From NCBI GenBank assembly GCA_016928395.1, contig JAFGKV010000147.1:82977-146976 (forward strand): a stretch of 64,000 bases of DNA, given 5' to 3'. The notes beneath the pieces were generated by a model. It searched no databases, was not told the DNA's origin, and was given only the letters and a program-made list of their open reading frames with translations. Positions 3,292-31,487 of the stretch are shown in pieces. Numbering within the stretch: the stretch's first letter is position 1; each line of letters begins with the position of its first letter. The DNA comes from Candidatus Fermentibacterota bacterium (GTDB taxonomy: Bacteria > JAFGKV01). The position numbers were made by a program, and so were the translations under genes.

Positions 3292-3960
3292 AGTGTGGGT
3301 CAGGAATTGATCCCCTTCACCATCGTTCCATGGTGCCGACCGTGAACTGCGAACGGTGAAGACGAACGGGAGCCATGTTTATCACAGAGTTGCAGAGGGC
3401 ACCGAGAGGAAGGCAGGTACAGAGGGTCGCCTCAGCACGAAGCGCGAAACGAGGAGGCGCGGTTGATGAGCGTCACTGGATGCTGGGGCTCCAACAGGCC
3501 CGCCCGCAGCCTGTGGTGCGGGCCAGGCTCTGTGGGAAATCCGAAGCACGCTCAGCACCTGCCGATGCAGGCCAAGGCGCGAACAGGAGGCAGGTGTTGG
3601 GTTACGCTGGCGCTAACCCCAACCTACATTTCTGCGGGAGCAAGCTCCCGCGAAACAAAGCGCACGCATGCTTGCGCACTCCACAGAGCGCCCTGCTCGA
3701 TGTATCGGAAGAGATCGCGAGGACTACCAGGGAATCCTCTGATCGGCGATTTCGAGATATTTCACGCCGGCGTCGACATCAAAGGGCTTGTGGTCGACCG
3801 CCCCAGGCTGTAGCCCCGGCGCTCTGCGCCGGGTGGCACGCCGCAGAGCGGCGTGGCTGCAACACGCCGTCCTCTCAGCCGCGAAAACCCTGAGTCCCTT
3901 CGCACTGAAAGGCTGAACTGGACCCCGAACCCTGAGCCTGCTCGCGAAGCGAGCCATCCA

Positions 3961-5154
3961 TCATTCCATCATTCCATCATTTCTTCCCTCCAGGAAGGCG
4001 CACAGCTCTGTCGTTGCTTCGACGAAGCGGGGCCAGGAGTAGCGCTGCTCAACCAGGCTACGGCCATTGGAGCCAAGACGGGCGGCGAGGTCGGCATCAC
4101 CGAGGACTCGCAGGATGCCCGATGCGAGTGCCGTGGGCTCCGCAGGCACGAGTACCGCGGTATCGGAGCTCAGGACCTGGGTGTGGGTGGCCAGATCCGT
4201 GGCAACGATGGGCTTTCCTGACTGGAGATAGGAGTAGATCTTCAAGGGCGTGTTCTGCCCAACCAGCCGCGGCGACACCAACACCGATGCCAACTCCATG
4301 AATGCAGGCATCTCGTCGGGCGGGCGCTGGCCGGTCAAACGCACATGGTCGCCCAATCTCATCCGCTCTGCCCTGGAGTGAAATTCCGCGACCTGACCCG
4401 GCTCTCCGCCGACCAGCACGAACATGGCTCGCGGGTGGCGGGCGAGCACCTGCGGAACAGCCTCCATAAGGAGATCCAGCCCCTGGTTCACCTCGAACGT
4501 GCCGGTATACAGGACGACGTCTCTTCCCTTCACGCCCAGGCTTGTCCTGAGGACGCGGGCACTGGTCACGACGTCAGGGCCGGGTGGCTCGCACACTGGT
4601 GGGTTCTCGATCAGAAAGACCCGCTTCTCTGGGTCGATCTTACGGACTACCCGTTCCAGCCAAGGACACACCACGATCACCGCCGCACTGTGTCGCACGA
4701 TCCAGGCCTCCGTTCGTCGGGCCAGGGTCACCAGCGACCGGGGCTTGGTGAACCGGTAGTTTTCCAGCTGCTGCGGCAGGCTCGAGTGCATATCATAGAT
4801 ATGCGGAACCCCGAGCAGCATGGCGACGACGACCCCGATGATGCCGCCTTCTTCGTGAGAATCCACCACATCTACCCTTCCCACCTGGGGAAGCGCAGCC
4901 ACGACGCGGAGGGCAAGGAGGAAGTCCAGGGGAAACTTGATCCACGATGGGCCGATGGGCACGCTTCGTATCGGCGGCAGGGGAGGGCTTCGGAAGACTC
5001 TCACCCCCGGTAGTTCCACCCGCTGGCCGATGGCATAGGTGATCAGGTCCACCGTGTGTCCGAGATGGGTGAGTGCCCGCAATCGTTCCCGGATACTGAA
5101 CGGGGTGCCGCGAAACTGGAAATAGGGCTGGGGCGCGATCATGAGTATGCGCAC
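3961..5154 (-). CDS. Glycosyltransferase family 4 (GT1 group 1)
   Basis: MRILMIAPQPYFQFRGTPFSIRERLRALTHLGHTVDL...; C-terminal GT4 donor-binding region (FEVNQGLDLLMEA...LVSPRLVGQNTPLKIYSYLQSGKPIVATD). Confidence 0.85.
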   Translation of the reverse strand: MRILMIAPQPYFQFRGTPFSIRERLRALTHLGHTVDLITYAIGQRVELPGVRVFRSPPLPPIRSVPIGPSWIKFPLDFLLALRVVAALPQVGRVDVVDSHEEGGIIGVVVAMLLGVPHIYDMHSSLPQQLENYRFTKPRSLVTLARRTEAWIVRHSAAVIVVCPWLERVVRKIDPEKRVFLIENPPVCEPPGPDVVTSARVLRTSLGVKGRDVVLYTGTFEVNQGLDLLMEAVPQVLARHPRAMFVLVGGEPGQVAEFHSRAERMRLGDHVRLTGQRPPDEMPAFMELASVLVSPRLVGQNTPLKIYSYLQSGKPIVATDLATHTQVLSSDTAVLVPAEPTALASGILRVLGDADLAARLGSNGRSLVEQRYSWPRFVEATTELCAFLEGRNDGMME

Positions 5155-5190
5155 GCGCCCCAGCTCCTTTCGCAGTCGATACGGCCGAGC

Positions 5191-6291
5191 CTACTCCAGC
5201 TCAGCCTTGAACCTTCTCAGGATCTCGAGGGCCTCGGATCCCGGCACATTGTCCATGACGCCGAACGCGCCATCCATCTTGCCCTTCATGATTCCCCGGG
5301 CCGTCATGAGCCGCACGGGGTTGTAGTAGGGGCTTTGGGGCGACAGATCCGAGAAGTCGGCCTTGGTCTCGCCGACGTACTTCGTCTCCAGGGAAGGATC
5401 CCGGAAGGCCTCCACGAGTATTCGCTGCATGACCATGGCCAGCTCTGCCCTCGGTAGCGTCTCGTCGGGAATGAATGAGCCATCCGGCGCCACATCAAGG
5501 ATTCCGCAGGAGAGCACCTTCTCGGCGAACCCGCGGGCCCACGATCCCACCAGATCGGGAGGCGTTGCCACATCCGACATGCGATGGCGGTAGATGCGGT
5601 CTAGCGGAAGAAGCTCCACCAGCACGCCGGAGAGCTCGGCCTTGGTGATCGCCGGGGATACCGCGACTTTACGCATGACCTCTGACTGGCCGGCGGTGGC
5701 CCTGCGAATCTCCTGAAGGCGTTCCCACGCTTCGGAGGCCTTGAGGAACTTGGGATCGATCTCCAGGGCCTTGGCATAGCTGGCTTCGGCGGCATCGGTC
5801 AGGTTCTGCTTCTCCTGCACGGCTGCCTTGTAGAACCACGCAAACTTGTACGCCTCGGGCTGGGGTTTGCCGTCTCTGCTTGTGGTGTCCAGAGCCTTGT
5901 CGAACTGCTTCACGGCATCATCGAGCTTGCCCTGGGCCGCCTTCACTCTGCCCAAGCCGACCCTGGCCATGGCGTAGCGGCCGTCCTGGTCGAGTGACTC
6001 GTCCATTTCCTTCTCGGCCTTCTCCAACTCGCCACGCTCAAGATGCACCAGGCCCAGGCCTTCGTGGGCAGGCGCGTAGGGCCGCTTGGCGGTCTTGGCC
6101 AGATCCCGCGAGCGGACAAACATGTCCCCCGCAAGGTCCGGCTTGCCGGTGTTCAGGTAGTCCATACCCTGGCGGTACGCGCCCTCGGGCGTATCCAAGA
6201 CACTCACCGGTTTGAGCTGCTTGCCGCCGCCGCAGGCGACGAGCAGCGACGCTGCCAAGAGCATCACGACATACACGGGTCTCATTCGCAC
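5191..6291 (-). CDS. TPR-repeat lipoprotein with two C-terminal SLH (S-layer homology) domains
   Basis: Lipobox LLVAC|GGG. TPR-like repeats (AYRQGMDYLNTGKPDLA..., AYKFAWFYKAAVQE...). Two SLH-like modules (MSDVATPPDLVGSWARGFAEKVLSCGILDVAPDGSFIPDETLPRAELAMVM and FSDLSPQSPYYNPVRLMTARGIMKGKMDGAFGVMDNV). Confidence 0.75.
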   Translation of the reverse strand: MRMRPVYVVMLLAASLLVACGGGKQLKPVSVLDTPEGAYRQGMDYLNTGKPDLAGDMFVRSRDLAKTAKRPYAPAHEGLGLVHLERGELEKAEKEMDESLDQDGRYAMARVGLGRVKAAQGKLDDAVKQFDKALDTTSRDGKPQPEAYKFAWFYKAAVQEKQNLTDAAEASYAKALEIDPKFLKASEAWERLQEIRRATAGQSEVMRKVAVSPAITKAELSGVLVELLPLDRIYRHRMSDVATPPDLVGSWARGFAEKVLSCGILDVAPDGSFIPDETLPRAELAMVMQRILVEAFRDPSLETKYVGETKADFSDLSPQSPYYNPVRLMTARGIMKGKMDGAFGVMDNVPGSEALEILRRFKAELE

Positions 6292-6296
6292 CTCCT

Positions 6297-7427
6297 CTAT
6301 CGCCTCTCGGCTGCGACGACGATCTTCCTGTCATCCATGGTCGTCAGCCGGAACTCGGAATGCCGATCGATCCCAGTTGCCAGATACACGAGCTTCTCGG
6401 GGTAGTGGAGCGTAACAGTGCCTCCCCCATTCTTAAACACGCCGGGTTCCACGCCTTCCACCCACCGCTGCTTCTCCACCAGGTTCACCAGCTTGCGGAA
6501 CGATGCCATGTCGGGCAGGTCGGCCGCTTCGACGGTCACGGTCTGCATCTTCTGAACCAGGTACTCGGAGTTCATCCACGCCATGACTTTGGCCACCATC
6601 TGAGGGGCAGCCCTGATGAGGGCCTTTTCGCTGGCATCAATGGGGTCTTGACCGAAGTCTTTGACGCGCTGGAGCTGTTCCTGGCCGATGATGCGGCCGG
6701 TTTCCACTTCGACCATGCGGCAGGTAACCCTGGCATGGGCCGACGGCAATGAGATGTCAGACGCATACTCTGTCGTGTTCTCGTGAACCGTGGTGCGGGA
6801 CGTGCCTTTGATGACCAGATTCGACAGGAAGCGCAAGCCGATCACCTGGGCTTCTTCCACGTCACCCTTGATGCGGGACAGCTCCGAGTCACGGCGTCTC
6901 AGCTCAGTGATCTGTTCGCGATCCCGCACGTCGTAGCCGGCATTCACCAGCGCCTCGACTACTTCGCTTTCCACCAGTGGGTCGGGCACCGTCTCGCCGG
7001 CCATATCCTCGTCGATCTGGACGACCACGGTCATGTTGGCGGTCAGATTGCTCTTGATCCCCGTCTCCAGGGAGGCCTTGTCCACTGTTGCCGAGATCTT
7101 GACCTTGTAAAGCCCTGCGGCTGCGTCGGGACCCTCCTCGAGGATCTTGTAGGCGGTGATCAGACCGGAGGATGTATTGCGCACCGTGGCTGCCAGGAGC
7201 AACTCGTTCTGCACCAAAGTTTCGGCATCCACCAGAACGCCGACTGCCTGCTCCAGGGCACGGACCCTGGCATCGATGATAGCCTCGTCCCGCGCCTGGG
7301 CGATGTCGCCCGAGAGGATGGTGCCAACTCCCTCGGCCTCGACGATCTCCGCTCGAGAGATAGAGGCCGTCGTGAGCACCAGCAGCGCCAGAACGGAACG
7401 CGAAGCCCTATCCCACCACGAAGACAA
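6297..7427 (-). CDS. Secreted FlgT-like protein: LPP20/FlgT_N-type N-domain plus TolB-N/CsgG-like middle domain
   Basis: Signal peptide. N-domain AEGVGTILSGDIAQARDEAIIDARVRALEQAVGVLVDAETLVQNELLLAATVRNTSSGLITAYKIL...GLYKVKISATV fits the LPP20/FlgT_N pattern. Middle region VVVQIDEDMAG...VTCRMVEVETGRIIGQ is TolB-N-like. Confidence 0.65.
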   Translation of the reverse strand: MSSWWDRASRSVLALLVLTTASISRAEIVEAEGVGTILSGDIAQARDEAIIDARVRALEQAVGVLVDAETLVQNELLLAATVRNTSSGLITAYKILEEGPDAAAGLYKVKISATVDKASLETGIKSNLTANMTVVVQIDEDMAGETVPDPLVESEVVEALVNAGYDVRDREQITELRRRDSELSRIKGDVEEAQVIGLRFLSNLVIKGTSRTTVHENTTEYASDISLPSAHARVTCRMVEVETGRIIGQEQLQRVKDFGQDPIDASEKALIRAAPQMVAKVMAWMNSEYLVQKMQTVTVEAADLPDMASFRKLVNLVEKQRWVEGVEPGVFKNGGGTVTLHYPEKLVYLATGIDRHSEFRLTTMDDRKIVVAAERR

Positions 7428-8310
7428 CTCGGCACTCCTTGAGGAAGTCGCTCTTCATGTTGGCAGCCACCACGCGTGCGGCATCATCCGTGGAGAGCAG
7501 CACATCGGCGGAATAGGCGCCACCGGTGGCAACGGCCCGAACCACAAGCGGGCTCTCGCCCACGCGCTCTTTGAGCGCCGTCGCCTTGGCGACGGTGTCG
7601 GTGTAGCCTACAACGCCGAAGCGAACGGCTGCGGCCCGGTCCATGTTGACGCGGCCATACAACTCTTCGTCACGGCCTTGCACCAGCACGCGCGGCGCCA
7701 TCGTCGGCTTCACGCCCAAACCTGAGGCGTCTACAATGAGGCCGGAAGCGGGTGGAACGTCGGAGGGTGCAGAGTCGCCCACGGTGAATAGCTTTGGCGC
7801 CGCCGCCTGAGTTCGTCGCTGCAGCCAGGGCACCACCGCCGATGAGAGGCCCTTTTCACCCGTGAGTACGATACCGACGGTCATCTCAACCCACACGGAT
7901 CCATCCTCGAACTCGGTTCGCTCCATGGCGACTTCCCGGGCGCCTTTGATGAGGCCCTCGGTGGAAGATTTCAACTGCACGTCCTGGTGAACCTCATTGG
8001 CGAACAGATTGTCGGCGTCGATGCGCACACCGTAGATGATCTCTGCCAGTTTCTCAAAGGCCAGATGCCGGGCGGTCTTCAGGGCCATGGCATAGCATTG
8101 TGCCTTAGACTTTGCCCTCTCGACATTGCAGGTGCCACCGGCGGTGACTTCAAGGTACCCGTTCTCCCAGTTGACGCGGCTCTTGTAGTCTTCGGCGATG
8201 GTCCGCTCCTCCAACGCGGCCTTGGCACTCTGCTCGTCTTCCCACCAACGGGTCTGGGCAGAGACCACAGCAGCACTCGCCAACATGAGCGCGATGATCG
8301 ATTTCACCAT
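7408..8310 (-). CDS. LPP20/FlgP-like periplasmic protein with uncharacterised C-terminal domain (paralog of the 8412-10982 C-terminus)
   Basis: Start at MVKSIIALMLASAAVVSAQ with RBS AAGGAAGG; the ORF track extends it to 8382. NWENGYLEVTAGGTCNVERAKSKAQCYAMALKTARHLAFEKLAEIIYGVRIDADNLFANE...DGSVWVEMTV fits LPP20. C-terminal GLIVDASGLGVKP...PLVVRAV...FLKECRVVFVV is shared with the next gene. Confidence 0.65.
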   Translation of the reverse strand: MVKSIIALMLASAAVVSAQTRWWEDEQSAKAALEERTIAEDYKSRVNWENGYLEVTAGGTCNVERAKSKAQCYAMALKTARHLAFEKLAEIIYGVRIDADNLFANEVHQDVQLKSSTEGLIKGAREVAMERTEFEDGSVWVEMTVGIVLTGEKGLSSAVVPWLQRRTQAAAPKLFTVGDSAPSDVPPASGLIVDASGLGVKPTMAPRVLVQGRDEELYGRVNMDRAAAVRFGVVGYTDTVAKATALKERVGESPLVVRAVATGGAYSADVLLSTDDAARVVAANMKSDFLKECRVVFVVG

Positions 8311-8411
8311 ACCACCTTCCTTTCGATAGGGCGATCCAGACACAGCGCCAGAACCCTGGCACTCGCCGGGCTCGCATACCATTCGATTCCCACGGCGACG
8401 CGCCTATGGAT

Positions 8412-10982
8412 TCATGCCGTGGGTTCCACCGTGATGGCAACCCTGCAGTTCTTGAGAAATCCTCCCGCCCTATCGGCACGGTCAATGAGCAGTGCGTCCT
8501 CCCGGGAGACTACCACATCGGATCTGTTCTTACCCGTTGCCTCGATAGCCTTGACCACCAGAGGATTCGAACCGATGACACTCACGTGTTTTGTTCGGGC
8601 GGCCTCGGGAGTGGCAGCAAACCGGGTCAGCCCGCCCAGATTCAACTGCACGCTCCGAGAGGCCTTGGAATCGCCGTAGACCTCTTCGCCATCAGTCGAG
8701 AAAACCCGGGACTTAGTGGCCGGCCGAACGCCAAGGTACGCAGCATCCACGATGAGGCCGGTATAGGGTTCCTTACCCAGTTCGACGACCCGCGTCACAC
8801 TGGCTGCCGGCACCGGCATCGCCGAGCCGGGAGCGGACCTCAGCGAGTCCCGGAGTGTCTGTACCGCGCGGGCGGCGGCGGCCGCCTGCTCCATGGCTCG
8901 GGCCACATCGTCGCGGGATGCCCCATCGGTCCTGACGAGCTTTCGCATGGCCGCGGCTTCGGTCTCCGCAGTCGCGGCTCGTCCCTCCAGGGCAGCCACA
9001 GCAGCCTGGAGTGTCTGGGTCTGCGCCAGGCTCCTTTTCAAATCCGCGACCAAGGCGGTCACTTCCGGGGAGGGGGCACGGCTTCCCGTCTCCACGGCCT
9101 TTGTGGCCAGGGACATGGCGGCCATGGTCTCCCGCTCCAGCTCGGTCTGCCGGGCCCTGCTGGAAGCCAACTCCTCGGCCAACCGCTGGGTCTGGGCAGC
9201 CAAGGCCTGAATCTGGGCATCGCGCTGGGCTGCCGATGTCGTGGCGGCACTCTCGGTTGCCAATCGCGCCTGGGAGAGCTGCCGTTCCAACGCCACGGCC
9301 TTTTCCCGCGCAGCCTTGGCCTCGTGCGACGCCTGGCGGGCTTCGGCTACGGCCTGGGCTAGCGCCGCATTGTCTTCCTCTTTCAGACGGGACATGGCCG
9401 ACGTCGTCTGCGCTTCGAAGGCGCTCTGCTTCTGCCGGGCCGACGCCAACTCATCAGCGAGCCGCTTCGTCTCAGCCGATAGACGGGCCATCTCAATTTC
9501 TCGTTCTTGAGCAGGTTTCGAGGAGAGCGTGTCCACGGCGTTTCGGGTGTCCTGCAGTTGTCGTTCTAGCCCATCGGCCCGTTCCCTGGCCCGAAGCGCA
9601 TCATCCGCGGCCTGGCGGGCTTCCGCCAGGGCCTCGGCTGCTTTGTCTCCGGAGCCCGCCGCGGCCATGGCGGTCGTGGTACCCTTTTCGAATTGGGTCT
9701 CCAATTGTACCTGCCTCTGGCGCGTGGCTCCCAATTCCTGGGCAAGGCGCTGGGTTTCCGCGGCCAGCCTCACCATCTCAACGTCTCTCCCGGCGGCTGA
9801 TCGGGCCGTCAGGCTGTCGATAGCCAAGCGTGCCTCGCGAAGCTGCCGTTCCAGGGCCACTGCCTGCTCCCTGGCGTGGCGCGCCTCCTGGGCGGCCTGA
9901 TGGGCTTCGGTGAGAGCTGCGGAGGCCGCCGAATTGTCTGTGGCCAGGGCCGACTGGGCCTGGGTCAAACGTGTGAGCGCCAGCTCATTGTCCCGCCGCA
10001 ATCGGTCCGCTTCAGACCGGGCTGCCTCCACCTGCAGCGCCGCATCCTGGGACTTCTGTAGCATGTCGGCTACCTGGCGAGCCTGTTCTGTGGCCGAGGC
10101 GCTGGCTGCGCGGGCCTCATCCGCCGCGGTCTGGGCTTCGGCTGCGGCGTTGGCCAAACGGCCGGCGATCTCCCGGGCCTCCTGGGCCGCAGCCTGGGCC
10201 TGGCGCGTCTCATCGGATGAGGCCGCCTGAACCTGGCGGGCCTGGGCCTCGGCCGCGGAGCGGGCTACCTCGTCCGCAGCCTTGCGGGCCTCTTCGGCGA
10301 TGCGAAGGGCCGCGGCGGCTTGCTCCAGTGCCCGCGTGGCGGTCTCTCCGTCGCGCGAAGCGGTGATGGCGGCACGGGAGTCCTGGGCGGCCTGGGTTGC
10401 CTGTTGCACCAACGTTTCCAAGCGTTCGGCGCGCTGTGTGGTCTGCGCCAGCTCCGCCTGGGCACGCTCAAAGTCGGCGCGAAGCTTGGCGATCTCCGGG
10501 GCCACGGACGGCGCGGACGCGTGCTGCACCGCGGCGGCGCCGAGGCCCCGGGGACCAAAGATCATGACACCCAACTTCACCCTGACCAGCGGCGACCCGT
10601 CGGGCATGGTGACAGTGTCCTCGCTGATGATCCGGGCGTTCTTGATGAGGCCGTTCACCGCGGTGCGCAGTGTCGTGTTGGCGATTACCTCATCCTGGAA
10701 GGTATTCGAGGAACTCACATGAAGGCCGTGCACCGTCTCCGCCAGCTTCTCATAGGCTAAGGCGCGGGCGGCCTTGATCGCCATGGTGTAGCAGTGGCCC
10801 TGGTTCACGGCGAGGGTGGGATCGCAGGTCGCTTCTCCGACGACCTCCACATACCCGTTCTCCCAGTCTACCGTGGCGGTGTAGTCGGCACCCTGGTCTA
10901 TGTGCCTCAGGGCCGAAGCCTCCTGCGACGAGGCCGCAGTCGCAAGAAGGAGGATCAGACCGCTTACGATTTCATGCCGCAT
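8412..10982 (-). CDS. 856-aa LPP20-like protein with ~500-aa Ala/Gln/Arg-rich coiled-coil repeat region and conserved C-terminal domain
   Basis: Signal peptide; N-domain VDWENGYVEVVGEATCDPTLAVNQGHCYTMAIKAARALAYEKLAETVHGLHVSSSNTFQDE...DGSPLVRVKL (LPP20). Long heptad-like low-complexity segment with three ~90-aa repeats. C-terminus GLIVDAAYLGVRPATKSRVF...PLVVKAIEATG...FLKNCRVAITV. Confidence 0.7.
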   Translation of the reverse strand: MRHEIVSGLILLLATAASSQEASALRHIDQGADYTATVDWENGYVEVVGEATCDPTLAVNQGHCYTMAIKAARALAYEKLAETVHGLHVSSSNTFQDEVIANTTLRTAVNGLIKNARIISEDTVTMPDGSPLVRVKLGVMIFGPRGLGAAAVQHASAPSVAPEIAKLRADFERAQAELAQTTQRAERLETLVQQATQAAQDSRAAITASRDGETATRALEQAAAALRIAEEARKAADEVARSAAEAQARQVQAASSDETRQAQAAAQEAREIAGRLANAAAEAQTAADEARAASASATEQARQVADMLQKSQDAALQVEAARSEADRLRRDNELALTRLTQAQSALATDNSAASAALTEAHQAAQEARHAREQAVALERQLREARLAIDSLTARSAAGRDVEMVRLAAETQRLAQELGATRQRQVQLETQFEKGTTTAMAAAGSGDKAAEALAEARQAADDALRARERADGLERQLQDTRNAVDTLSSKPAQEREIEMARLSAETKRLADELASARQKQSAFEAQTTSAMSRLKEEDNAALAQAVAEARQASHEAKAAREKAVALERQLSQARLATESAATTSAAQRDAQIQALAAQTQRLAEELASSRARQTELERETMAAMSLATKAVETGSRAPSPEVTALVADLKRSLAQTQTLQAAVAALEGRAATAETEAAAMRKLVRTDGASRDDVARAMEQAAAAARAVQTLRDSLRSAPGSAMPVPAASVTRVVELGKEPYTGLIVDAAYLGVRPATKSRVFSTDGEEVYGDSKASRSVQLNLGGLTRFAATPEAARTKHVSVIGSNPLVVKAIEATGKNRSDVVVSREDALLIDRADRAGGFLKNCRVAITVEPTA
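9100..9960 (-). repeat. In-frame tandem protein repeats (~270 bp x3) inside the coiled-coil gene
   Basis: Three ~90-aa units (A(E/Q)AR(H/Q)A.EQAVALERQL(R/S)(E/Q)ARLA...ET(Q/K)RLA(Q/D)ELA..RQ.Q.E.Q). Coordinates approximate. The repeats generate many spurious plus-strand ORFs. Confidence 0.55.
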
Positions 10983-10992
10983 GGTGCGCTCC

Positions 10993-11829
10993 TCACGTGC
11001 AGTGGTTCTTGACGTAGTGGGTGGCTGCCTTGTTTGACGGGTCGATGGCGAGAATCCGTTTCCATAGAGCGCAGGCTTCCTTCAGGTCGCCGCGCTTCTG
11101 AGCTTCCAATGCCAGATCGCCATACACCTTCGCCAGGTTGAACTTGGCATCCTGACTGTTCGGGTTCACCTGGAGAACCCTCCGCCACTGATCGATGGCC
11201 GCCTGGGATTCACCCTTGGCGTAGAGTACCCAGCCCAGGCTGTTGCGGGCCTCCTGATGGCGCGAGTCAAGCTCGATGGCCCGGCGGAACGACAGCTCGG
11301 CATTGGCCTGCATGCCCAGCCGGAAGAACACCGCGCCCAGCTTCAGGTGGGTCTCTGGCTCCATGGCGTCGGCGTCTCGGGAGCGTCGCAGATGGTCCAT
11401 CGCATCCTCGACGCGACCGCGAAGCAGATAGAGAGCCCCCAGGAAGTAGTGTGCGGTGGCATTGCCGGGATCTGCGCCAAGCATGGCCTGGAATTGACCC
11501 CTGGCCTGTTCGATCCGCTCGGCGTGGAGATCAATCACGCCCTGCCACATGCACGCGGTCTCATTGCCCGGATCCAAGGCCTGGACGTAGGCGAACTGAG
11601 CCGAAGCTCCTTTCGTATCGCCGAGCTTGAGGAGAACAAGCCCCAGCAGGTTTCTGGCATAGACGTTTCGTGGGTCCATTGTCACTGCCTGGTTCAGCTT
11701 GTCTCGGGCAGCAGGGAGCCGGCCCGCCACATGATCGAGGTCGGCATCCAGCGCCAGGCGCAGAGACTCTTCAGCCGGGCCTGCCGTGCAGACACCCACG
11801 ATAATCGCGAGTAACGCCGCCACTCTCAT
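10993..11829 (-). CDS. TPR-repeat secreted protein
   Basis: Signal peptide MRVAALLAIIVGVCTAGPA followed by about 6 TPR-like repeats (ARNLLGLVLLKLGDTKGA, AHYFLGALYLLRGRVEDA, and others). Confidence 0.7.
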   Translation of the reverse strand: MRVAALLAIIVGVCTAGPAEESLRLALDADLDHVAGRLPAARDKLNQAVTMDPRNVYARNLLGLVLLKLGDTKGASAQFAYVQALDPGNETACMWQGVIDLHAERIEQARGQFQAMLGADPGNATAHYFLGALYLLRGRVEDAMDHLRRSRDADAMEPETHLKLGAVFFRLGMQANAELSFRRAIELDSRHQEARNSLGWVLYAKGESQAAIDQWRRVLQVNPNSQDAKFNLAKVYGDLALEAQKRGDLKEACALWKRILAIDPSNKAATHYVKNHCT

Positions 11830-13004
11830 GACGCGTAGGCCGCCAGCTTCGCCGCCAGGGTCTCGACCAGCCTCTCCTGAGCCTGTTCGCGGGCCAAGAG
11901 AAGCTCCTCGTCAGGATTGCTGATGAAGGCAGTTTCGACGAGCACCGAGGGCATCCGTGCCTTCTTGAGTACGAAGAAACCCGCGCTACTAATGCCGCGG
12001 CTTCGCACCGGAAACCCGGTCTTGAGGGCCTCCTGCACGTCGGCCGCGATGCGGCCGGAATCTTTCCACAGGAGCTTGCGCTGCAGCCGGAACAAGACCC
12101 ACTCGATATCGACGAGACTCTCCTGTCTGGCCAGTTCCTCGGGCTCGGCGAAGCTGTTCTCGAAGGTGGCGACTCGGGCCGCCTCCGCGCTGGAGGCCTG
12201 CTCGGAGCAGAAGAAGGTCTCGGAGCCGACGGCCTTGCGGTTCTCATTGGCGTTGCAGTGAATGGACACGAAGAGATCGGCGCCATACTGGTTGGCCACG
12301 GCGGTGCGGTCGCTTAGGTTCAGGTAGTAGTCATCGGTGCGTGTCAGGGCAATCCTGCCGAAGCCCGCCCGATCGAGGCGCGCGGCCAGGAGCCGGCTTA
12401 GTGCGAGAGTGATATCCTTCTCCTTGGTTCCCTTGAGACCTACGGCGCCGGGATCATGGCCGCCGTGGCCCGGATCGATGACGATGTTGCGGATACGCAA
12501 CCCAAGCCTGCCATCGGAGCTTCTTTGTCTGAGGCGTTCCGCTTCCTCGCGCGCTTCGGCCTCCAGCCGGGCCATCTCGGGCGAGGTGGCCGCGATTCTT
12601 GGGGCCAAGGCGGGGCCAAGAACATCCACGATGACCCGGGGGGGATCACCCACCATCCGGGCCGTGACATGGGATCCGGTGGATGCATCAAACTCCAGGA
12701 TGGTTTTGTAGCCTTCGTCAGACGGCGTGAAGATCCGATAGCTCCGCACAGGTCCGGAGGAGAGCTGGCGGCTGTCCTCCACTGGCAGATACAGCGCATT
12801 CTTCAGAACCACTTGGGGGGGAGGCCCGGGGCGGACATCCAGAGGGCAGGCTCCATCTAACTCAAGGACGACCCGCGTCTGGTCTTCCAGTACGAAGGCG
12901 TCCACCCTGCCAATGAGGGGAAGAAGATCGTCGTCCGCAAAGGCTGTCCGGGAGAGCAGGATAGCAGACGCCGGAAGGGTTTTCAGGAAGATGCGCCGCC
13001 GCAT
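11826..13004 (-). CDS. N-acetylmuramoyl-L-alanine amidase (AmiC-like: AMIN domain + Amidase_3)
   Basis: IDPGHGGHDPGAVGLKGTKEKDITLALSRLLAARL and ADLFVSIHCNA zinc-ligand motifs. N-terminal AMIN-like beta domain. 4-nt overlap with the upstream gene. Confidence 0.85.
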   Translation of the reverse strand: MRRRIFLKTLPASAILLSRTAFADDDLLPLIGRVDAFVLEDQTRVVLELDGACPLDVRPGPPPQVVLKNALYLPVEDSRQLSSGPVRSYRIFTPSDEGYKTILEFDASTGSHVTARMVGDPPRVIVDVLGPALAPRIAATSPEMARLEAEAREEAERLRQRSSDGRLGLRIRNIVIDPGHGGHDPGAVGLKGTKEKDITLALSRLLAARLDRAGFGRIALTRTDDYYLNLSDRTAVANQYGADLFVSIHCNANENRKAVGSETFFCSEQASSAEAARVATFENSFAEPEELARQESLVDIEWVLFRLQRKLLWKDSGRIAADVQEALKTGFPVRSRGISSAGFFVLKKARMPSVLVETAFISNPDEELLLAREQAQERLVETLAAKLAAYAS

Positions 13005-13007
13005 GGA

Positions 13008-14450
13008 CTACTTCGTGACTACCAGATCATTCACCGTGACCGCCCCGCCCGTGCCCTCAACGGGCTGGGCCACCGCCATCATCTCCATCACTTCGGTCAG
13101 GACGACTTCAGACTTGCTCTTGCGGGTTCTTCCAAGGGTCTTCCCGGTCGCAGGATGGGTGATCGGTTCGCCCTCGGTGAAGACGTGGAGCTTCATGCCT
13201 TTGCGCATGCCTTGGCGGGAACCCAACCCGACGTAGACTGATCCGTCAGGGTCGACCTTGACCACGGAGCCCTCCACGAGGGGGAGGACATTGGCGAAGT
13301 AGGCGGCGATATCCGCCACGGAGCGACGTAGCTGCGCAGGATCGGATTCCGGGGCTTGGGCCGATCGGGCGGCCAGCACTTCTCCCGTTTCCGTGTCAAC
13401 CAGCCGCAGATCCATCTCCACTGTTGGACCCGAACGGTTCACGCTTCCCATCACCAGGCAGTCAACCCCCGCCTGCTTGCCAAGTCTTGCCGCGGTTGAT
13501 TGATCGACGAGGTCGGTCAGCCCGAACTTGAGTTCCTTCAGCACCTTGTCCATCTGGATGCGTTCATTGACTTGAAACCGCTGATACTCCACCAACGATG
13601 TCACCATGCGCTCCGCAATGAGCCCGCCCAAGTCTTCCGTGCCCTTTGGGGCCGACATGGGGATGACTCCGACCGAGAGATAGGGAACAACGCGCTGCAC
13701 CTTGCCGGATGGGTGCGCGGTCGCCGGCGCGGGCGGACGAGTCTGGGCCGGCGGCGTGACCTGCTGAAGTGGAGGAGTTGCAGCCGGCTCAGGGATGACG
13801 CCGAAATCCTTGGGCACTTTCACCTTCCTGATGGCGCCGAGGGTCTTCTTGTCCAGCGTTCCCGTAGCGGAGAGCCGGTTGTCCTGTTGGAAACTCTGTA
13901 GCGCCGCCTGGCTGCCTTTGCCGAAGATTCCGTCTACTGTGCCGGAGTAGTAGCCTTTGTACGACAAGACCCTTTGTACTTCCCGAAGCTCATCCTGCGA
14001 CAGAGTGAGGGCGGGGGTTGCCTGTGGTTTCTCTGGTGTTGCAGGCGGGGTGGGTGTGACGCGGGCAGGAGGAGCAACTCCATTAGAAACCTTGGAAAGG
14101 AACTCGAGCGTCCGCGCATCGTTGGGAGTGTAGGCTGCTGCGAGATCGAGTTCTTCCCGTGCCCGGGTCAGGTCGCCAAGATGATAGGCGGCGATCCCGA
14201 TCTCCCGGTGGGGATGGTAGTCGACGAAATGCATGCCGTAGGTCTGAACCTTTTTCGACTGGTCTTGAAAGAGACCCTCCAACGCTTGTTCGAAGGCCAC
14301 GATGGCCTGCGCGTACTTCGCCTCTTTCGTGAGACGGAGACCCTGGGCGTAGTAGTTGTACCATCGGTCGGCGGAATCGACGAGGCCCGGCCCTGCCGAA
14401 AGAAACCCCACCACGAGGAGAATCACAGTCCGTCTCATCTCTTCCCTCAT
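13008..14450 (-). CDS. Periplasmic protein: TPR region + peptidoglycan-binding (PG_binding_1) domain + CsgG/FlgO(TolB-N)-like domain
   Basis: LREVQRVLSYKGYYSGTVDGIFGKGSQAALQSFQQDNRLSATGTLDKKTL is PG_binding_1. LSVGVIPMSAPKGTEDLGGLIAERMVTSLVEYQRFQVNERIQMDKVLKELKF...LGKQAGVDCLVMGSVNRSGPTVEMDLRLVDTETGEVL fits the CsgG/FlgO/LpoB family. Pro-rich linkers. Start uncertain (14450, 14438 or 14519). Confidence 0.65.
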   Translation of the reverse strand: MREEMRRTVILLVVGFLSAGPGLVDSADRWYNYYAQGLRLTKEAKYAQAIVAFEQALEGLFQDQSKKVQTYGMHFVDYHPHREIGIAAYHLGDLTRAREELDLAAAYTPNDARTLEFLSKVSNGVAPPARVTPTPPATPEKPQATPALTLSQDELREVQRVLSYKGYYSGTVDGIFGKGSQAALQSFQQDNRLSATGTLDKKTLGAIRKVKVPKDFGVIPEPAATPPLQQVTPPAQTRPPAPATAHPSGKVQRVVPYLSVGVIPMSAPKGTEDLGGLIAERMVTSLVEYQRFQVNERIQMDKVLKELKFGLTDLVDQSTAARLGKQAGVDCLVMGSVNRSGPTVEMDLRLVDTETGEVLAARSAQAPESDPAQLRRSVADIAAYFANVLPLVEGSVVKVDPDGSVYVGLGSRQGMRKGMKLHVFTEGEPITHPATGKTLGRTRKSKSEVVLTEVMEMMAVAQPVEGTGGAVTVNDLVVTK

Positions 14451-14792
14451 CGTGAAAACGGCCAGAGTGTCAGATGTACGAAAGCAAGATAGCCAGGCCC
14501 CGAGGAGGCGGCAAGACACGGATTAGGTGCCGGGGTAGGGACAGGCTATCCTCCGCAGACGAAGGGAGTCCTCAAACCCTTCGTGGCTGGAGGTGCGGCA
14601 GAGCACACCGGCTGGTGTGTGGGCTCGCGCGGGAGCAAGCAGGTGTGCAGGAGGGCACGGTGTCATACCCCTTCAGGCCCTGAAGCCATCCTTCATGCCA
14701 GCGTTGCTCTCTTCTGTCGCCGAGCCACACTCGGACCTGCCGCCTTGACAGCGTCACCGGCATTCTTGACCAGCGGGGTGGTCTCTGCGGAT

Positions 14793-14826
14793 GGTTGCTA
14801 TTGACATGGGGGCACCCTGCATGCAG
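14793..14826 (+). promoter_or_regulatory. Candidate sigma70-like promoter (TTGACA-17-CAGAAT) upstream of the ptsN-like gene
   Basis: ttgaca tgggggcaccctgcatg cagaat. Preceded by two more TTGAC-containing repeats at ~14744 and ~14764. Confidence 0.25.
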
Positions 14827-14863
14827 AATACTGTCAGACATATCTCGCTGGGAGGATACTACT

Positions 14864-15358
14864 ATGCTCGTGAGCAGTTTGCTGAGCCCCGCCACAGTCG
14901 CGACCGGACTCTCCCTGGAAAGCAAACAGGAGGTGCTTGAGCGTCTCGTTAGCCTAGCGGCGACGTTCGGCACGGTCGTCAACCGCTCTGCTGCGCTGAC
15001 TGCGCTGTTGGAGCGTGAGGGGCTCTGCAGCACGGCGATCGGCCACGGTATTGCCATACCGCATGCGACCCAGCCGTTGCCAGGGGTATTCAAGGGCGTG
15101 GCCTTGTCGGTCGTGCGCTTGGAACGGGGCCTCGATCTTGACGCGCCGGATGGTGAACCAGTGCGGCTCTTTGTGCTCATGGGTACGGATGATCGCAAGC
15201 AGCACCTGCAAGTCTTGGGGCGGTTGGCCCGGCTGTTCCGTTGCGACCAACTTCGAGCCGAACTCATGCAGGCCCCGACAAGCGAGGCCTTCACCGATTC
15301 GTTGGCGAAGGCCGACAATGCGCTCAATCGGCTGAATGGCACCCTGAGCTCCCCCTGA
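14864..15358 (+). CDS. ptsN: PTS EIIA type-2 (EIIA-Ntr/PtsN-like) regulatory protein
   Basis: RBS GGAGGA 7 nt upstream of the ATG. Phosphorylation-site motif HGIAIPHA and overall PtsN-like sequence. The ORF track starts at 14795. Confidence 0.75.
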   Translation: MLVSSLLSPATVATGLSLESKQEVLERLVSLAATFGTVVNRSAALTALLEREGLCSTAIGHGIAIPHATQPLPGVFKGVALSVVRLERGLDLDAPDGEPVRLFVLMGTDDRKQHLQVLGRLARLFRCDQLRAELMQAPTSEAFTDSLAKADNALNRLNGTLSSP

Positions 15359-23119: not shown

Positions 23120-23437
23120 GGATCCTGCCTTGTGCCGTGGGTGAGCGATGGAGCGTTGCCAAACACATAAGGGTATACTGACTCGGTGCCCGATGCAACC
23201 ATTGCTTTCCCACGAGCAACCGCTCAGGCTGTTTGGGGTTTTGGATCGAGTGATGTTCGATCCAACGTGACGGACCGATGAACGAGAGGAGTCCCCGGTT
23301 CGTCTTTCGTGACTCCGTGTACGCCGGGCGCATTGAGGCTATGAGTCGTGACTAGTATGGGTAGCTTGAGGAGGACATGTGACGCAGTGTCGTGCACCAG
23401 GAGCATCCGGGGAGATTCCGTGGTAAGACGAACCCTC

Positions 23438-29584: not shown

Positions 29585-29745
29585 CTCGAGGTGAGCACTC
29601 AAAGCGGTGGCCAGGCACAGGATACGTATCGTTCCATCTCCTGCGGCATGTGTAGCGGTGAAGAAACCGTGGCGCGACGAGGTAGAAGGGGATAGACCCG
29701 ATCAGCACCACAAGGATGATGAAGGGAAGACGTGGAGGATCGTTC

Positions 29746-31137: not shown

Positions 31138-31487
31138 GGGGGCGTTCCATGAGCCGGGTTCGGGGTTCAGGGGCGGAATGATGGGGATGGATGGAAGAAT
31201 GGAAGAATGGAAGAATGGAGCGGGGGGTGTCCTTTCCTGCAATCCCTGGATGCCCTTCATGCCGCAGGCCCTGAGCCGAGTCGAGGGGGTGAGTTTCTCC
31301 GCTCTGTGGCATCTGTGCCCTCCGTGGTGAACTCTCCTTAACGAGCGTTGCGGCTTTGTCGTTGACCCTGAGAGTAGTCGAGGGGCGTCAGATCTCTGTT
31401 TTGGATTTCGAGCTTGGCCTCGCACCCGCGGATGCGGGGTTTTGTGCCTCCCGCGAAGCGGGCGGACTGCTGAGAATGGAGAGGGCA

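What the first reader, a model, noticed from the sequence alone, without database searches (positions are those of the whole stretch)
5191..14519. Non-flagellar FlgO/FlgP/FlgT-like envelope module co-clustered with SLH, peptidoglycan-binding, TPR and amidase proteins
Seven consecutive minus-strand genes encode: (i) a TPR lipoprotein with two SLH domains; (ii) a protein with FlgT architecture (LPP20/FlgT_N domain plus TolB-N-like middle domain); (iii, iv) two LPP20/FlgP-like paralogs; (v) a TPR protein; (vi) an AmiC-type amidase with AMIN domain; (vii) a TPR + PG_binding_1 + CsgG/FlgO-like protein. LPP20 (FlgP), CsgG-like (FlgO) and FlgT are the three components of the outer-membrane-associated H-ring/basal disk of Vibrio and Campylobacter flagella, and TPR scaffolds (PflA/PflB) are their periplasmic partners. 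No flagellar structural, motor or export gene occurs anywhere in these 64 kb. The module is instead wired to SLH and PG-binding domains and a septal-type amidase. This looks like an uncharacterised envelope ring/disk or OM-PG tethering apparatus built from flagellar-disk-type parts.
Basis: partly seen in the sequence, partly recalled or inferred. Interest (0 to 1): 0.8.

Follow-up and report, generated by a model that had tools for sequence, protein, structure and literature searches.

The report
Non-flagellar FlgT/FlgP/FlgO-like envelope operon
A non-motile, uncultured bacterium carries a tightly packed operon of exported proteins whose domains match the outer-membrane ring proteins of Vibrio and Campylobacter flagella, here joined to cell-wall-binding modules instead of a flagellum; the same core occurs in several other phyla and has no known function.

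Summary
Window 5191-14519 (-) carries seven tightly spaced genes, plus a conserved eighth (GT4 glycosyltransferase, 3961-5154), in a Candidatus Fermentibacteria contig.

- **g6:** the family profile hits C. jejuni FlgP and Pfam FlgT_N. Its AF2 model's best PDB match is Vibrio FlgT over the full length.
- **g4 and g5:** paralogs whose family profile hits FlgP structures (E 1e-8 to 1e-19). The profile also matches T. pallidum Tp0624 domains D1-D2 end to end (E 3e-20). g4 carries an extra ~575-aa coiled coil.
- **g1:** PG_binding_1 plus a CsgG/FlgO/LpoB-type domain plus a weak FlgT_C match.
- **g7:** a TPR lipoprotein with two SLH domains.
- **g2:** an AmiC/AmiA-like amidase with a twin-arginine-type signal. 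Its AMIN domain is not confirmed.

No major ORF of the 64 kb matches a flagellar family, and published Fermentibacteria genomes lack flagella. The block is syntenic in three other Fermentibacteria loci. Core subsets recur in Methylomirabilota, Nitrospirota, Desulfobacterota, Selenomonadaceae, Truepera, Stella and Planctomycetota, never beside flagellar genes in the loci checked.

My best reading is a non-flagellar periplasmic scaffold linking outer membrane and peptidoglycan. Ring geometry is untested. Unlike FlgP and FlgO, only g7 is lipidated.

The parts
13008..14450 (-). g1: exported protein, not a lipoprotein. It has a weak TPR-like N-terminal region, PG_binding_1 (aa 175-230 = 13830-13997), a Pro-rich linker, a CsgG/FlgO/LpoB-type alpha/beta domain (aa 289-392 = 13344-13655) and a FlgT_C-like C-terminal domain (aa 427-501 = 13017-13241). 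The ORF extends to 14519; the likely start is Met24 (14450) or Met28 (14438).
   Evidence: Pfam: PG_binding_1 58.4 bits, CsgG 45.7, FlgO 25.0 (cut-off 22.6, model positions 29-128 of 130), LpoB 25.1, FlgT_C 20.1 (below the cut-off of 27). The PG-binding domain matches SleB and phiKZ gp144. Orthologues in L035 and L036 are 472-473 aa. The Selenomonadaceae homologue scores FlgT_C 31.3 bits. No lipobox.
11826..13004 (-). g2: N-acetylmuramoyl-L-alanine amidase of the AmiC/AmiA type. It has a twin-arginine-type signal (MRRRIFLK) and an N-terminal domain of about 130 aa of unconfirmed type.
   Evidence: Amidase_3 at 9.8e-50. NCBIfam AmiC 9e-40 and AmiA 2e-39, both below the equivalog cut-offs. AMIN only E 0.047. 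The RRRIFLK motif is read directly from the translation. Its 3' end overlaps g3 by 4 nt.
10993..11829 (-). g3: exported TPR protein, co-conserved with the amidase.
   Evidence: TPR_2 98.6 bits and other TPR families. The g2+g3 pair is conserved in L004, L006, L035 and L036.
8412..10982 (-). g4: long paralog of g5. It has a FlgP/LPP20-type SHS2 N-domain (about 10533-10871), an Ala/Arg/Glu/Gln-rich coiled-coil region of about 575 aa with three diverged repeats of about 94 aa (about 8778-10505), and a Tp0624-D2-type C-domain (about 8424-8768).
   Evidence: BLASTP against g5: N-domain 41% identity (4e-30), C-domain 37% identity (1e-15). The middle region has 7 Pro and 12 Gly in 575 aa, and its repeats are 47-50% identical. 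Length varies among relatives: 573, 681 and 698 aa.
7408..8310 (-). g5: exported two-domain protein of 300 aa, made of a FlgP/LPP20-type SHS2 domain plus a Tp0624 D2-type domain.
   Evidence: Family profile A2 against the PDB: Tp0624 5jir_B at 3e-20 across profile positions 47-300, and FlgP chains 9hmf_C 1.7e-19, 9yfg 4e-10, 8z5n_2 2e-9. AF2 model pLDDT 84.6; Foldseek top hit 5jir at 4e-9. The family has 2423 representatives with E<=1e-3. NCBI calls the protein as 300 aa.
6297..7427 (-). g6: exported FlgT-like three-domain protein, made of an SHS2/FlgT_N-type N-domain, a TolB-N/CsgG/PelC-type middle domain and a C-terminal alpha/beta domain.
5191..6291 (-). g7: lipoprotein (lipobox LVAC, Cys20) with TPR repeats and two C-terminal SLH domains (about 5194-5556).
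   Evidence: TPR families and SLH (2 SLH stretches, 35.3 bits). Lipobox found. Full-length homologues at 32-34% identity sit next to g5- and g6-like genes in Methylomirabilota, Nitrospirota, Desulfobacteraceae and an unassigned metagenome contig (L005). It is the commonest neighbour of g5-like genes in metagenome loci.
3961..5154 (-). GT4 glycosyltransferase, 36 nt downstream of g7. It is probably the last gene of the operon and is conserved at this position only within Fermentibacteria.
   Evidence: Glyco_trans_1_4 and Glycos_transf_1. Found in the same position in L006, L035 and L036.

Best explanation
This is an eight-gene operon for a non-flagellar structure of the periplasm and outer-membrane underside.

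**Shown**
- Seven products are exported. Six carry Sec-type signals and the amidase carries a twin-arginine motif.
- g6 has the three-domain FlgT architecture.
- g4 and g5 carry the FlgP-type SHS2 domain, including the segment between the helix and the next strand that forms the ring-building beta-hairpin in C. jejuni FlgP. They also carry a Tp0624-D2 domain.
- g1 combines a peptidoglycan-binding domain with a FlgO/CsgG/LpoB-type domain.
- g7 is the only lipoprotein and carries two SLH domains.

**Inferred**
[quoted passage not shown] It holds the wall, or a wall polymer, through its SLH domains and docks partners through its TPR repeats.
- g6, g5 and g4 oligomerise through their SHS2 domains into arcs, rings or sheets under the outer membrane, as FlgT and FlgP do.
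- g1 pins the assembly to peptidoglycan.
- The g4 coiled coil acts as a long strut or spacer.
- The amidase g2, with its TPR partner g3, locally strips peptide stems from peptidoglycan so the assembly can be seated in or through the wall.
- The GT4 enzyme may make the glycan ligand.

The net function would be a mechanical link between outer membrane and peptidoglycan, or a platform in the envelope.
For: - **Domain assignments:**
- **Export signals and single lipobox:**
- **Operon structure:** ORF spacing. A divergent PTS EIIA gene sits upstream here and in L035 and L036.
- **Gapless alignment of g4, g5 and g6 with C. jejuni and V. cholerae FlgP through the post-helix segment:**. The AF2 monomer models are disordered exactly there (pLDDT<50 at g5 98-115 and g6 66-81), as expected if the segment orders only in an oligomer.
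- **Ring formation in the FlgP family:** Drobnic et al. 2025 (PMC12222027) state that it correlates with this insert.
- **Synteny:** the full block recurs in L006, L035 and L036. Core sets recur in Methylomirabilota (L001, L008), Nitrospirota (L016, L017), Desulfobacteraceae (L013), Selenomonadaceae (L018), Truepera (L024), Stella (L029-31) and Planctomycetota (L032).
- **No flagellar genes:** none in the window or in the neighbour loci checked.
- **Non-flagellate phylum:** reported.
- **Related folds:** proteins with the g6 middle-domain fold (PelC, CsgG, FlgT, TraT) form rings at the outer membrane (one search lists them; the ring-forming behaviour is established knowledge).
Against: - No oligomer was modelled or observed, so ring or disk geometry is pure inference.
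- FlgP and FlgO are anchored by lipid, but g1, g4, g5 and g6 are not. Family-wide, only 1 of 45 g5-type and 2 of 25 g6-type proteins have a lipobox.
- Sequence identity to FlgT is 13-14%, so functional transfer is weak.
- SLH domains normally need a pyruvylated wall polymer. No pyruvyl transferase was seen in the window, and the rest of the genome could not be read.
- The amidase, the TPR protein g3 and the GT4 enzyme are restricted to Fermentibacteria and one related lineage, so they are accessory.
- In other phyla the core sits beside caspase, M48, transglutaminase, a CHASE2 cyclase or a STAND regulator. This could point to a sensing or proteolytic role rather than a purely structural one.
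- In a metagenome sample, only 7 of 37 g5 loci of at least 7 kb also held a g6-like gene. The eight-gene set is therefore one combination among several.
Confidence: 0.55

Rival explanations
1. This is a peptidoglycan-remodelling or cell-division module. The LpoB/CsgG-type domain proteins (g1, g6) and the TPR proteins would target or activate the AmiC-type amidase, or a synthase, at particular wall sites. This would parallel the way LpoB, NlpD, EnvC and ActS control wall enzymes. The SHS2 proteins would be adaptors.
For: - g1 hits LpoB above the Pfam cut-off (25.1 against 22.3) and carries PG_binding_1.
- g1 ends 3 nt before g2, and g2 overlaps g3 by 4 nt.
- The amidase is AmiC/AmiA-like with a Tat-type signal.
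- SpoIID and LysM proteins recur near g5-like genes.
Against: - The amidase is absent from the module in most phyla.
- The conserved core is g5, g6, the CsgG-like gene and g7, not the enzyme.
- No LytM-type activator and no synthase lies in the block.
- AMIN, the septal-targeting domain, is unconfirmed.
Confidence: 0.15
2. This is an accessory outer-membrane export scaffold for an exopolysaccharide or another polymer, Pel-like in logic. It would combine a PelC/CsgG-fold ring, TPR scaffolds and a PelF-like GT4 glycosyltransferase.
For: - g1 hits CsgG at 45.7 bits.
- TPR proteins are present, and a conserved GT4 gene follows g7.
Against: - The block has no beta-barrel porin, no inner-membrane synthase or copolymerase, and no PelD/E/G or Wza/Wzc-type genes.
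- The CsgG match covers only model positions 43-98 of 210 in its best stretch, and the domain is only about 100 aa. It is too short for the channel hairpins, and g1 is not lipidated.
- GT4 is not part of the module outside Fermentibacteria.
Confidence: 0.1
3. This is an envelope-damage or surface sensor. The exported scaffold would report on outer-membrane or wall integrity to signalling or proteolytic effectors located elsewhere in this genome.
For: In other lineages the core sits next to:
- a CHASE2 adenylate/guanylate cyclase (L004, L005);
- a FecR-domain protein (L005);
- a caspase fused to a g5-like domain, plus an M48 peptidase (L001, L003);
- a MalT/BTAD STAND regulator, and a Ser/Thr kinase with a PP2C phosphatase (L033, L034);
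- transglutaminase-like proteins.
Against: - None of these effectors is in the Fermentibacteria block or within the 64 kb window.
- There are no PADLOC defence-family hits beyond generic TPR.
- No transmembrane signalling protein is encoded in the operon.
Confidence: 0.1
4. This is either a relic of a lost flagellum or a chance juxtaposition of unrelated envelope genes.
For: - The Pfam names FlgT_N, FlgO and FlgT_C appear.
- Saad 2017 reports 'single genes for flagellar biosynthesis' in a non-motile Fermentibacteria genome.
Against: - All ORFs are intact and tightly spaced.
- Orthologues at 63-86% identity are kept in several Fermentibacteria.
- The same core is linked to non-flagellar partners (SLH-TPR, Tp0624-D2) across at least seven phyla.
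- Identity to the flagellar proteins is only about 13-18%.
Confidence: 0.03

Closest known systems
Vibrio H-ring proteins FlgT, FlgP and FlgO (PDB 3W1E, 8Z5N, 9YDS/9YEF) and the C. jejuni basal-disk protein FlgP (9HMF)
   Same: - g6 matches FlgT over the full length of its model (N, M and C domains).
- g4, g5 and g6 carry the FlgP-type SHS2 domain, with a post-helix segment of the same length.
- g1 carries a FlgO-family domain above the Pfam cut-off and a weak FlgT_C match.
- All are exported to the periplasm.
   Different: - There is no flagellum. No FlgH/FlgI LP-ring or MotX/MotY is present to bind.
- The FlgP- and FlgO-like proteins are not lipoproteins.
- The FlgP-like proteins carry an extra D2 domain, and g4 also has a coiled coil of about 575 aa.
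- The FlgO-like domain is fused to PG_binding_1.
- Partners are an SLH-TPR lipoprotein and an amidase.
- Identity is about 13-18%.
Treponema pallidum Tp0624 (PDB 5JIR; Parker et al. 2016, PMC5104382)
   Same: g5, and the two ends of g4, are homologous to the D1-D2 tandem across its whole length (profile E 3e-20; top Foldseek hit). The paper already noted about 50 D1-D2-only proteins in other bacteria, with function unknown.
   Different: - Tp0624 has a C-terminal OmpA-like domain D3, which g5 and g4 lack. Here wall binding is supplied in trans by g1 and g7.
- The paper did not link D1 to FlgP/LPP20, and it did not describe any gene neighbourhood.
LPP20/Lpp20 (H. pylori HP1456, 5OK8) and the CsgG/PelC/LptE/LpoB/GNA1162/HpaA outer-membrane lipoprotein fold group
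   Same: - The Selenomonadaceae g5 homologue hits Pfam LPP20 above its cut-off.
- The middle domain of g6 and the g1 domain share this fold group. Several of its members form rings under the outer membrane.
   Different: Those proteins are single-domain lipoproteins with assigned roles in curli, Pel, LPS or PBP1B activation. Here the domains are unlipidated and embedded in multidomain proteins.
SLH-based outer-membrane tethers of diderm Terrabacteria (OmpM, SlpA)
   Same: SLH domains on an outer-membrane-associated protein would attach the outer membrane to the wall.
   Different: - g7 is a TPR lipoprotein, not a beta-barrel porin.
- The host belongs to the FCB group, where Pal- and OmpA-type tethers are expected. 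This last point rests on my own knowledge and was not tested here.
Leptospira lipoprotein LipL46
   Same: g6 residues 29-180 match the LipL46 model (E 6e-8), which suggests the same N plus M domain arrangement.
   Different: The score of 31.7 bits is far below the 400-bit family cut-off. LipL46 is lipidated and is studied only as a surface antigen or adhesin.

Membership tests
Flagellar H-ring / basal disk (FlgT-FlgP-FlgO) | FlgT three-domain architecture (FlgT_N SHS2, FlgT_M TolB-N-like, FlgT_C) | tested here: met
   [not shown]
Flagellar H-ring / basal disk (FlgT-FlgP-FlgO) | FlgP-type SHS2 domain with the insert between the helix and the second strand that correlates with ring formation | tested here: met
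   Profile A2 against FlgP chains gives E 1.7e-19 to 1.5e-8. The alignment through the insert is gapless. The criterion comes from PMC12222027. Only the presence of the segment was tested, not the hairpin structure.
Flagellar H-ring / basal disk (FlgT-FlgP-FlgO) | FlgO-family domain | tested here: met
   g1 scores FlgO 25.0 bits against a cut-off of 22.6, covering model positions 29-128 of 130. The same residues score higher for CsgG.
Flagellar H-ring / basal disk (FlgT-FlgP-FlgO) | N-terminal lipidation of FlgP and FlgO (outer-membrane anchoring) | tested here: not met
   g1, g4 and g5 have no lipobox. Family-wide, 1 of 45 g5-type proteins has one. The lipidation of Vibrio FlgP Cys18 and FlgO Cys16 is taken from 10.64898/2025.12.02.691832.
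Flagellar H-ring / basal disk (FlgT-FlgP-FlgO) | Association with a flagellum (LP-ring FlgH/FlgI, MotX/MotY, flagellar gene clusters) | tested here: not met
   No flagellar Pfam family is found in the 64 kb or in the related loci checked. Kirkegaard 2016 reports no flagella-related proteins in any Hyd24-12 genome; Saad 2017 describes a Fermentibacteria member as non-motile with incomplete motility pathways. The rest of this genome could not be read.
Flagellar H-ring / basal disk (FlgT-FlgP-FlgO) | Assembly into large homo-oligomeric rings | not testable with these tools
   Only monomer structure prediction was available.
Tp0624 D1-D2 tandem family | Contiguous D1 (SHS2-like) plus D2 (orthogonal beta-sheets) unit | tested here: met
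   Profile A2 matches 5jir_B residues 14-262 at E 3e-20. Foldseek gives 5jir at E 4e-9, probability 1.0.
Tp0624 D1-D2 tandem family | C-terminal OmpA-like domain D3 (treponemal full-length form) | tested here: not met
   g5 ends after D2. Neither g4 nor g5 has an OmpA Pfam hit.
CsgG curli secretion channel | Full-length lipidated CsgG with transmembrane hairpins and csgE/F/A/B neighbours | tested here: not met
   The best CsgG stretch covers model positions 43-98 of 210. The domain is about 100 aa. There is no lipobox and there are no curli genes.
AmiC-type septal amidase | Amidase_3 catalytic domain | tested here: met
   Amidase_3 at 9.8e-50, 169 bits.
AmiC-type septal amidase | N-terminal AMIN targeting domain | tested here: inconclusive
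   AMIN scores E 0.047 and 14.2 bits, below the 20.5 cut-off, over only 26 residues. No structure model was made for g2.
AmiC-type septal amidase | Equivalog-level match to AmiC | tested here: not met
   NCBIfam amidase_AmiC scores 136.5 bits against a cut-off of 700.
SLH-mediated wall anchoring | Tandem SLH domains on an envelope protein | tested here: met
   Two SLH stretches, 35.3 bits against a cut-off of 20.8.
SLH-mediated wall anchoring | Pyruvylated wall polymer / CsaB pyruvyl transferase in the genome | not tested
   No such gene is among the window ORFs scanned.
Pel exopolysaccharide export | PelB porin plus PelD/E/G inner-membrane components alongside PelC and PelF | tested here: not met
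   [not shown]

The most novel reading that the evidence does not exclude
The operon encodes a large, previously unseen ring or lattice under the outer membrane of non-flagellated bacteria. It would be built from FlgT/FlgP/FlgO-type subunits and a Tp0624-D2 domain. It would represent the non-flagellar lineage from which the Vibrio H-ring and the Campylobacterota basal disk were recruited. The same apparatus would then explain the unknown function of T. pallidum Tp0624 D1-D2 and of Leptospira LipL46.
Probability: 0.22. Interest if true: 0.85.

Novelty: new variant of a known kind. Interest (0 to 1): 0.66.

Why it matters
**Origin of flagellar disk proteins.** High-torque flagellar motors acquired their outer disks (H-ring, basal disk) from proteins whose origin is unknown. 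[quoted passage not shown] This locus, and its relatives in at least seven phyla, show a coherent non-flagellar gene set. It contains FlgT-like, FlgP-like and FlgO-like proteins together, linked to wall-binding modules. That gives a concrete candidate for the source system and makes the co-option hypothesis testable.

**Unexplained spirochaete proteins.** The locus gives a gene-neighbourhood context to the Tp0624 D1-D2 unit and links D1 to FlgP. That unit comes from a T. pallidum protein solved in an effort to understand how the unusual treponemal cell envelope is stabilised, and its function is unknown. It also offers a weak link to Leptospira LipL46.

**Outer-membrane tethering.** The block points to an SLH-based lipoprotein tether in an FCB-group bacterium.

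**Experimental access.** Carriers such as Geobacter, Stella vacuolata ATCC 43931 and Truepera radiovictrix could make experiments feasible.

Tried and rejected
- **RNA features:** the tRNA and Rfam scans of the window found nothing.
- **Single-sequence Pfam and NCBIfam scans of g4, g5 and g6:** essentially empty. Family profiles were needed.
- **Promoter and terminator scan of 3700-15000:** counts did not exceed the shuffles (3 against 1.4±1.4; 10 against 7.0±2.5). The operon boundaries therefore rest on gene spacing and synteny only.
- **Tandem repeats in g4:** Tandem Repeats Finder found no DNA-level repeat in g4 and a self-BLAST printed nothing. The three protein repeats were found by pairwise alignment.
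- **PADLOC defence families:** only generic TPR hits, so the defence-system reading was rejected for this locus.
- **afdb50 fold library:** unavailable.
- **The search for related loci on metagenome contigs:** alignments A2 and A3 were too divergent. I replaced them with a degenerate DNA pattern for the YTGLIVDA motif.
- **hhalign of the g6 family against g1:** only a weak match between the two CsgG-type domains (probability 31%, E 5e-4).
- **The 256-aa minus-strand ORF at 14572-15342:** rejected as a gene. It has no family hits, and a PTS EIIA gene lies on the opposite strand.
- **The 613-aa protein upstream (15443-17284):** not part of the operon, because the divergent EIIA gene separates it.

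Full report
**Source and layout**

The g6 protein is 100% identical to NCBI 'hypothetical protein JXA88_09775 [Candidatus Fermentibacteria bacterium]' on a 152-kb contig. NCBI places this class in the FCB group. Between 3961 and 14519 the minus strand carries eight ORFs with gaps or overlaps of +3, -4, +10, +101, -20, +5 and +36 nt.

Upstream, the 256-aa minus-strand ORF at 14572-15342 has no family match. The plus strand at 14795-15358 encodes a PTS EIIA domain protein (E 1.5e-26). The same divergent EIIA gene precedes the block in two related contigs. The transcription unit therefore most likely starts at g1 and ends with the GT4 gene. Consensus promoter and terminator scans gave nothing above shuffled controls.

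**Checking each protein**

- **g7 (5191-6291).** It has TPR repeats and two SLH stretches (35.3 bits against a cut-off of 20.8) and a canonical lipobox LVAC.
- **g6 (6297-7427).**
  - The single sequence is only marginal for Pfam FlgT_N (E 0.063). Its family alignment A1 (25 sequences) behaves differently: 14 members hit FlgT_N (best 8e-12) and 6 hit CsgG weakly.
  - The A1 profile finds C. jejuni FlgP (9hmf_C) at E 6e-10.
  - An AF2 model (pLDDT 75.7) has Vibrio FlgT as its best Foldseek matches (3w1e at E 1.2e-11 and 8z5n_0), each over about 386 columns, which is the whole protein.
  - The FlgT-like architecture is therefore supported.
- **g5 (7408-8310, 300 aa as called by NCBI) and g4 (8412-10982).** They are paralogs, 41% identical in the N-domain and 37% in the C-domain. 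Neither hits Pfam on its own.
  - The g5 family is large: 2423 representatives at 50% clustering with E<=1e-3.
  - Its profile A2 matches T. pallidum Tp0624 (5jir_B) over profile positions 47-300 at E 3e-20. It also matches FlgP chains from Campylobacter and Vibrio (1.7e-19, 3.6e-10, 8.3e-10, 2e-9, 1.5e-8) on the N-domain.
  - The AF2 model (pLDDT 84.6) again finds Tp0624 first.
  - hhalign joins the g5 and g6 N-domains at 98% probability.
  - g4 additionally holds about 575 residues that are 28% Ala and rich in Arg, Glu and Gln, with only 7 Pro and 12 Gly. This region includes three diverged repeats of about 94 aa. I read it as a coiled coil from composition. Its length differs among relatives: 573 to 856 aa.
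- **g3** is a TPR protein.
- **g2** has Amidase_3 (1e-49), resembles AmiC and AmiA below the equivalog cut-offs, and begins MRRRIFLK, a twin-arginine-type motif.
- **g1** has PG_binding_1 (58 bits, also matching the SleB and phiKZ gp144 wall-binding domains). One domain of about 100 aa scores above the cut-off for CsgG, FlgO and LpoB, and there is a sub-threshold FlgT_C match. The Selenomonadaceae homologue reaches FlgT_C at 31 bits, above the cut-off.

**Absence of a flagellum**

About 45 further ORFs across the window were scanned. They encode:
- ABC transporters, cyanophycin synthetase, MetRS and HypF;
- a ParA-like ATPase and a TetR-TolC-AcrAB efflux set;
- a sugar ABC system, TldD/PmbA, a PMT_2 glycosyltransferase and GH44;
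- helicases, TGT and RuvB.

No flagellar family appears among them.

Kirkegaard et al. 2016 state that none of the Hyd24-12 (Fermentibacteria) genomes encodes flagella-related proteins and that the envelope is diderm with LPS. Saad et al. 2017 describe another member as non-motile, with only 'single genes for flagellar biosynthesis'. I could not read the rest of this particular genome.

**Synteny**

- **Within Fermentibacteria.** Three other loci (L006, L035, L036; g6 at 67-78% identity) keep the order g1-g2-g3-g4-g5-g6-g7-GT4.
- **An unassigned MAG contig (L004; g6 homologue 45% identical).** It has a CHASE2 cyclase, a g5-like gene, the amidase, TPR, a g4-like gene and a g6-like gene.
- **Methylomirabilota / Rokubacteria (L001, L008).** The set there comprises:
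  - a g5-like domain fused to a caspase, and an M48-TPR peptidase;
  - TPR-CsgG, a g6-like gene and CsgG-DUF4384;
  - a g5-like gene and a g7-like TPR-SLH protein (34% identity, full length);
  - a transglutaminase and a GNA1162-like protein.
- **Other phyla.** The genome scan with the g6 profile returned 27 loci. Searching their ORFs, together with the other loci held at that point, with my profile HMMs found these sets:
  - g5-like, g7-like and CsgG-like genes beside g6-like genes in Nitrospirota and Desulfobacteraceae (L013);
  - g5-like and CsgG-like genes beside g6-like genes in Selenomonadaceae and Truepera;
  - g5-like genes within a few kilobases of g6-like genes in Stella and Planctomycetota;
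  - a simpler g6-like plus lipoprotein TPR-CsgG pair in Geobacter and Trichlorobacter.
- **Flagellar neighbours.** No flagellar gene lay beside any locus I annotated.
- **From the g5 side.** I sampled metagenome contigs through the conserved YTGLIVDA motif.
  - 104 of 120 loci held a g5-like ORF.
  - Among the 37 of those that were at least 7 kb, 15 had a g7-like neighbour, 7 a g6-like and 5 a CsgG-like.
  - Other recurrent neighbours were transglutaminase-like, CarboxypepD_reg and DUF4384 proteins. No flagellar family was among the 25 commonest.

The deepest pairings are therefore g5 with g7 and g6 with a CsgG-like protein. The Fermentibacteria operon combines both and adds an amidase, a TPR protein, a coiled-coil paralog and a GT4 enzyme.

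**How it probably works**

*Shown:* export signals on seven products, a single lipoprotein (g7), two kinds of wall-binding module (SLH, PG_binding_1), three proteins with FlgP-type SHS2 domains, and two with the TolB-N/CsgG/PelC-type domain.

Drobnic et al. 2025 report that ring formation in the FlgP family goes with an insert between the SHS2 helix and the second strand. g4, g5 and g6 align without gaps to C. jejuni and V. cholerae FlgP through that segment. The monomer models are disordered exactly there.

*Inferred:*
- The SHS2 proteins oligomerise beneath the outer membrane.
- g7 fixes them to the membrane by its lipid and to the wall by SLH.
- g1 adds a second wall contact.
- g4 provides a long strut.
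- g2 and g3 clear peptide stems locally.

I put about 0.55 on a structural scaffold or tether between outer membrane and peptidoglycan, and about 0.3 on true ring geometry.

**Differences from the flagellar system**

In Vibrio, FlgP and FlgO are lipidated at Cys18 and Cys16, and FlgT surrounds the LP-ring. Here g1, g4, g5 and g6 lack a lipobox. Family-wide, only 1 of 45 g5-type and 2 of 25 g6-type proteins have one. There is also no LP-ring to surround. The locus therefore fails membership of the flagellar H-ring system while sharing its building blocks.

**Literature**

Full-text searches found no description of this gene set:
- FlgT-like, FlgP-like, FlgO-like and LPP20-like returned no papers.
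- LPP20, CsgG and DUF799 returned nothing relevant.
- CHASE2, FecR and CsgG returned nothing relevant.

The Tp0624 paper calls D1-D2 'previously uncharacterized', notes about 50 D1-D2-only proteins and assigns no function. I searched it for neighbouring genes and it describes none.

**Verdict**

Homology, the non-flagellar context and synteny are established. The ring or tether function is inferred. I class the locus as a new variant of a known kind.

Noticed in passing
window 14572-15342 (-) and 14795-15358 (+): The 256-aa minus-strand ORF upstream of g1 is a spurious high-GC ORF. The real gene is a divergently transcribed PTS EIIA (PF00359, E 1.5e-26). It is conserved at this position in L035 and L036 and marks the operon boundary.
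   Followed up: yes
L001 5471-7183; L003 6631-8319: In Methylomirabilota/Rokubacteria contig L001 and the unassigned JGI contig L003, a g5-like D1-D2 unit (35% identical to g5 over about 290 aa) is fused to a C-terminal caspase (Peptidase_C14) domain. An M48-TPR peptidase gene follows it. This places a periplasmic SHS2 scaffold domain on a protease.
   Followed up: partly
L004 53-1951; L005 7741-9930 and 13206-13958: A CHASE2-sensor adenylate/guanylate cyclase lies immediately upstream of the g5-like gene in two unrelated lineages. In L005 a FecR-domain protein sits inside the module. This hints at a signalling link that is absent from the Fermentibacteria version.
   Followed up: no
window 8778-10505 (g4 middle); L035 6094-8139; L036 6947-9043; L004 5320-7041: The g4 coiled-coil spacer varies in length among relatives (856, 681, 698 and 573 aa). 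Here it contains three diverged repeats of about 94 aa that are 47-50% identical at the protein level, with no DNA-level tandem repeat.
   Followed up: partly
L033 17000-18298; L034 11949-13241: Proteins that Pfam labels T6SS-SciN (TssJ-like lipoprotein) match the g5 family profile (E 3e-16). They lie about 6 kb downstream of a FlgT_N protein plus TPR-CsgG pair. A MalT/BTAD STAND regulator is encoded nearby in both contigs; in L033 a Ser/Thr kinase and a PP2C phosphatase also follow.
   Followed up: no
window 15443-17284 (-) and 17281-19935 (-): A 613-aa protein with no family assignment (only a sub-threshold Helicase_C_3 hit) overlaps the stop of a cyanophycin synthetase gene by 4 nt. The same pair (612 aa plus cyanophycin synthetase) recurs in L036.
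   Followed up: no
window 5194-5556 (g7 SLH domains): SLH domains on a lipoprotein in an FCB-group bacterium. To my knowledge, SLH-based wall attachment is mostly discussed for Terrabacteria. No pyruvyl transferase gene was seen in the window.
   Followed up: no
literature, bioRxiv 10.1101/146886: Saad et al. report 'single genes for flagellar biosynthesis' transcribed in a non-motile Fermentibacteria genome. These could be automatic annotations of FlgT_N- or FlgO-like genes such as g6 and g1. This is my speculation.
   Followed up: no
window 28955-35791 (+); 40628-43296 (-); 23348-25771 (+): Ordinary neighbours are present: a TetR-TolC-AcrA-AcrB efflux operon (which confirms a diderm envelope), a TldD/PmbA peptidase pair, and a HypF carbamoyltransferase with no other hyp or hydrogenase genes nearby.
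   Followed up: no
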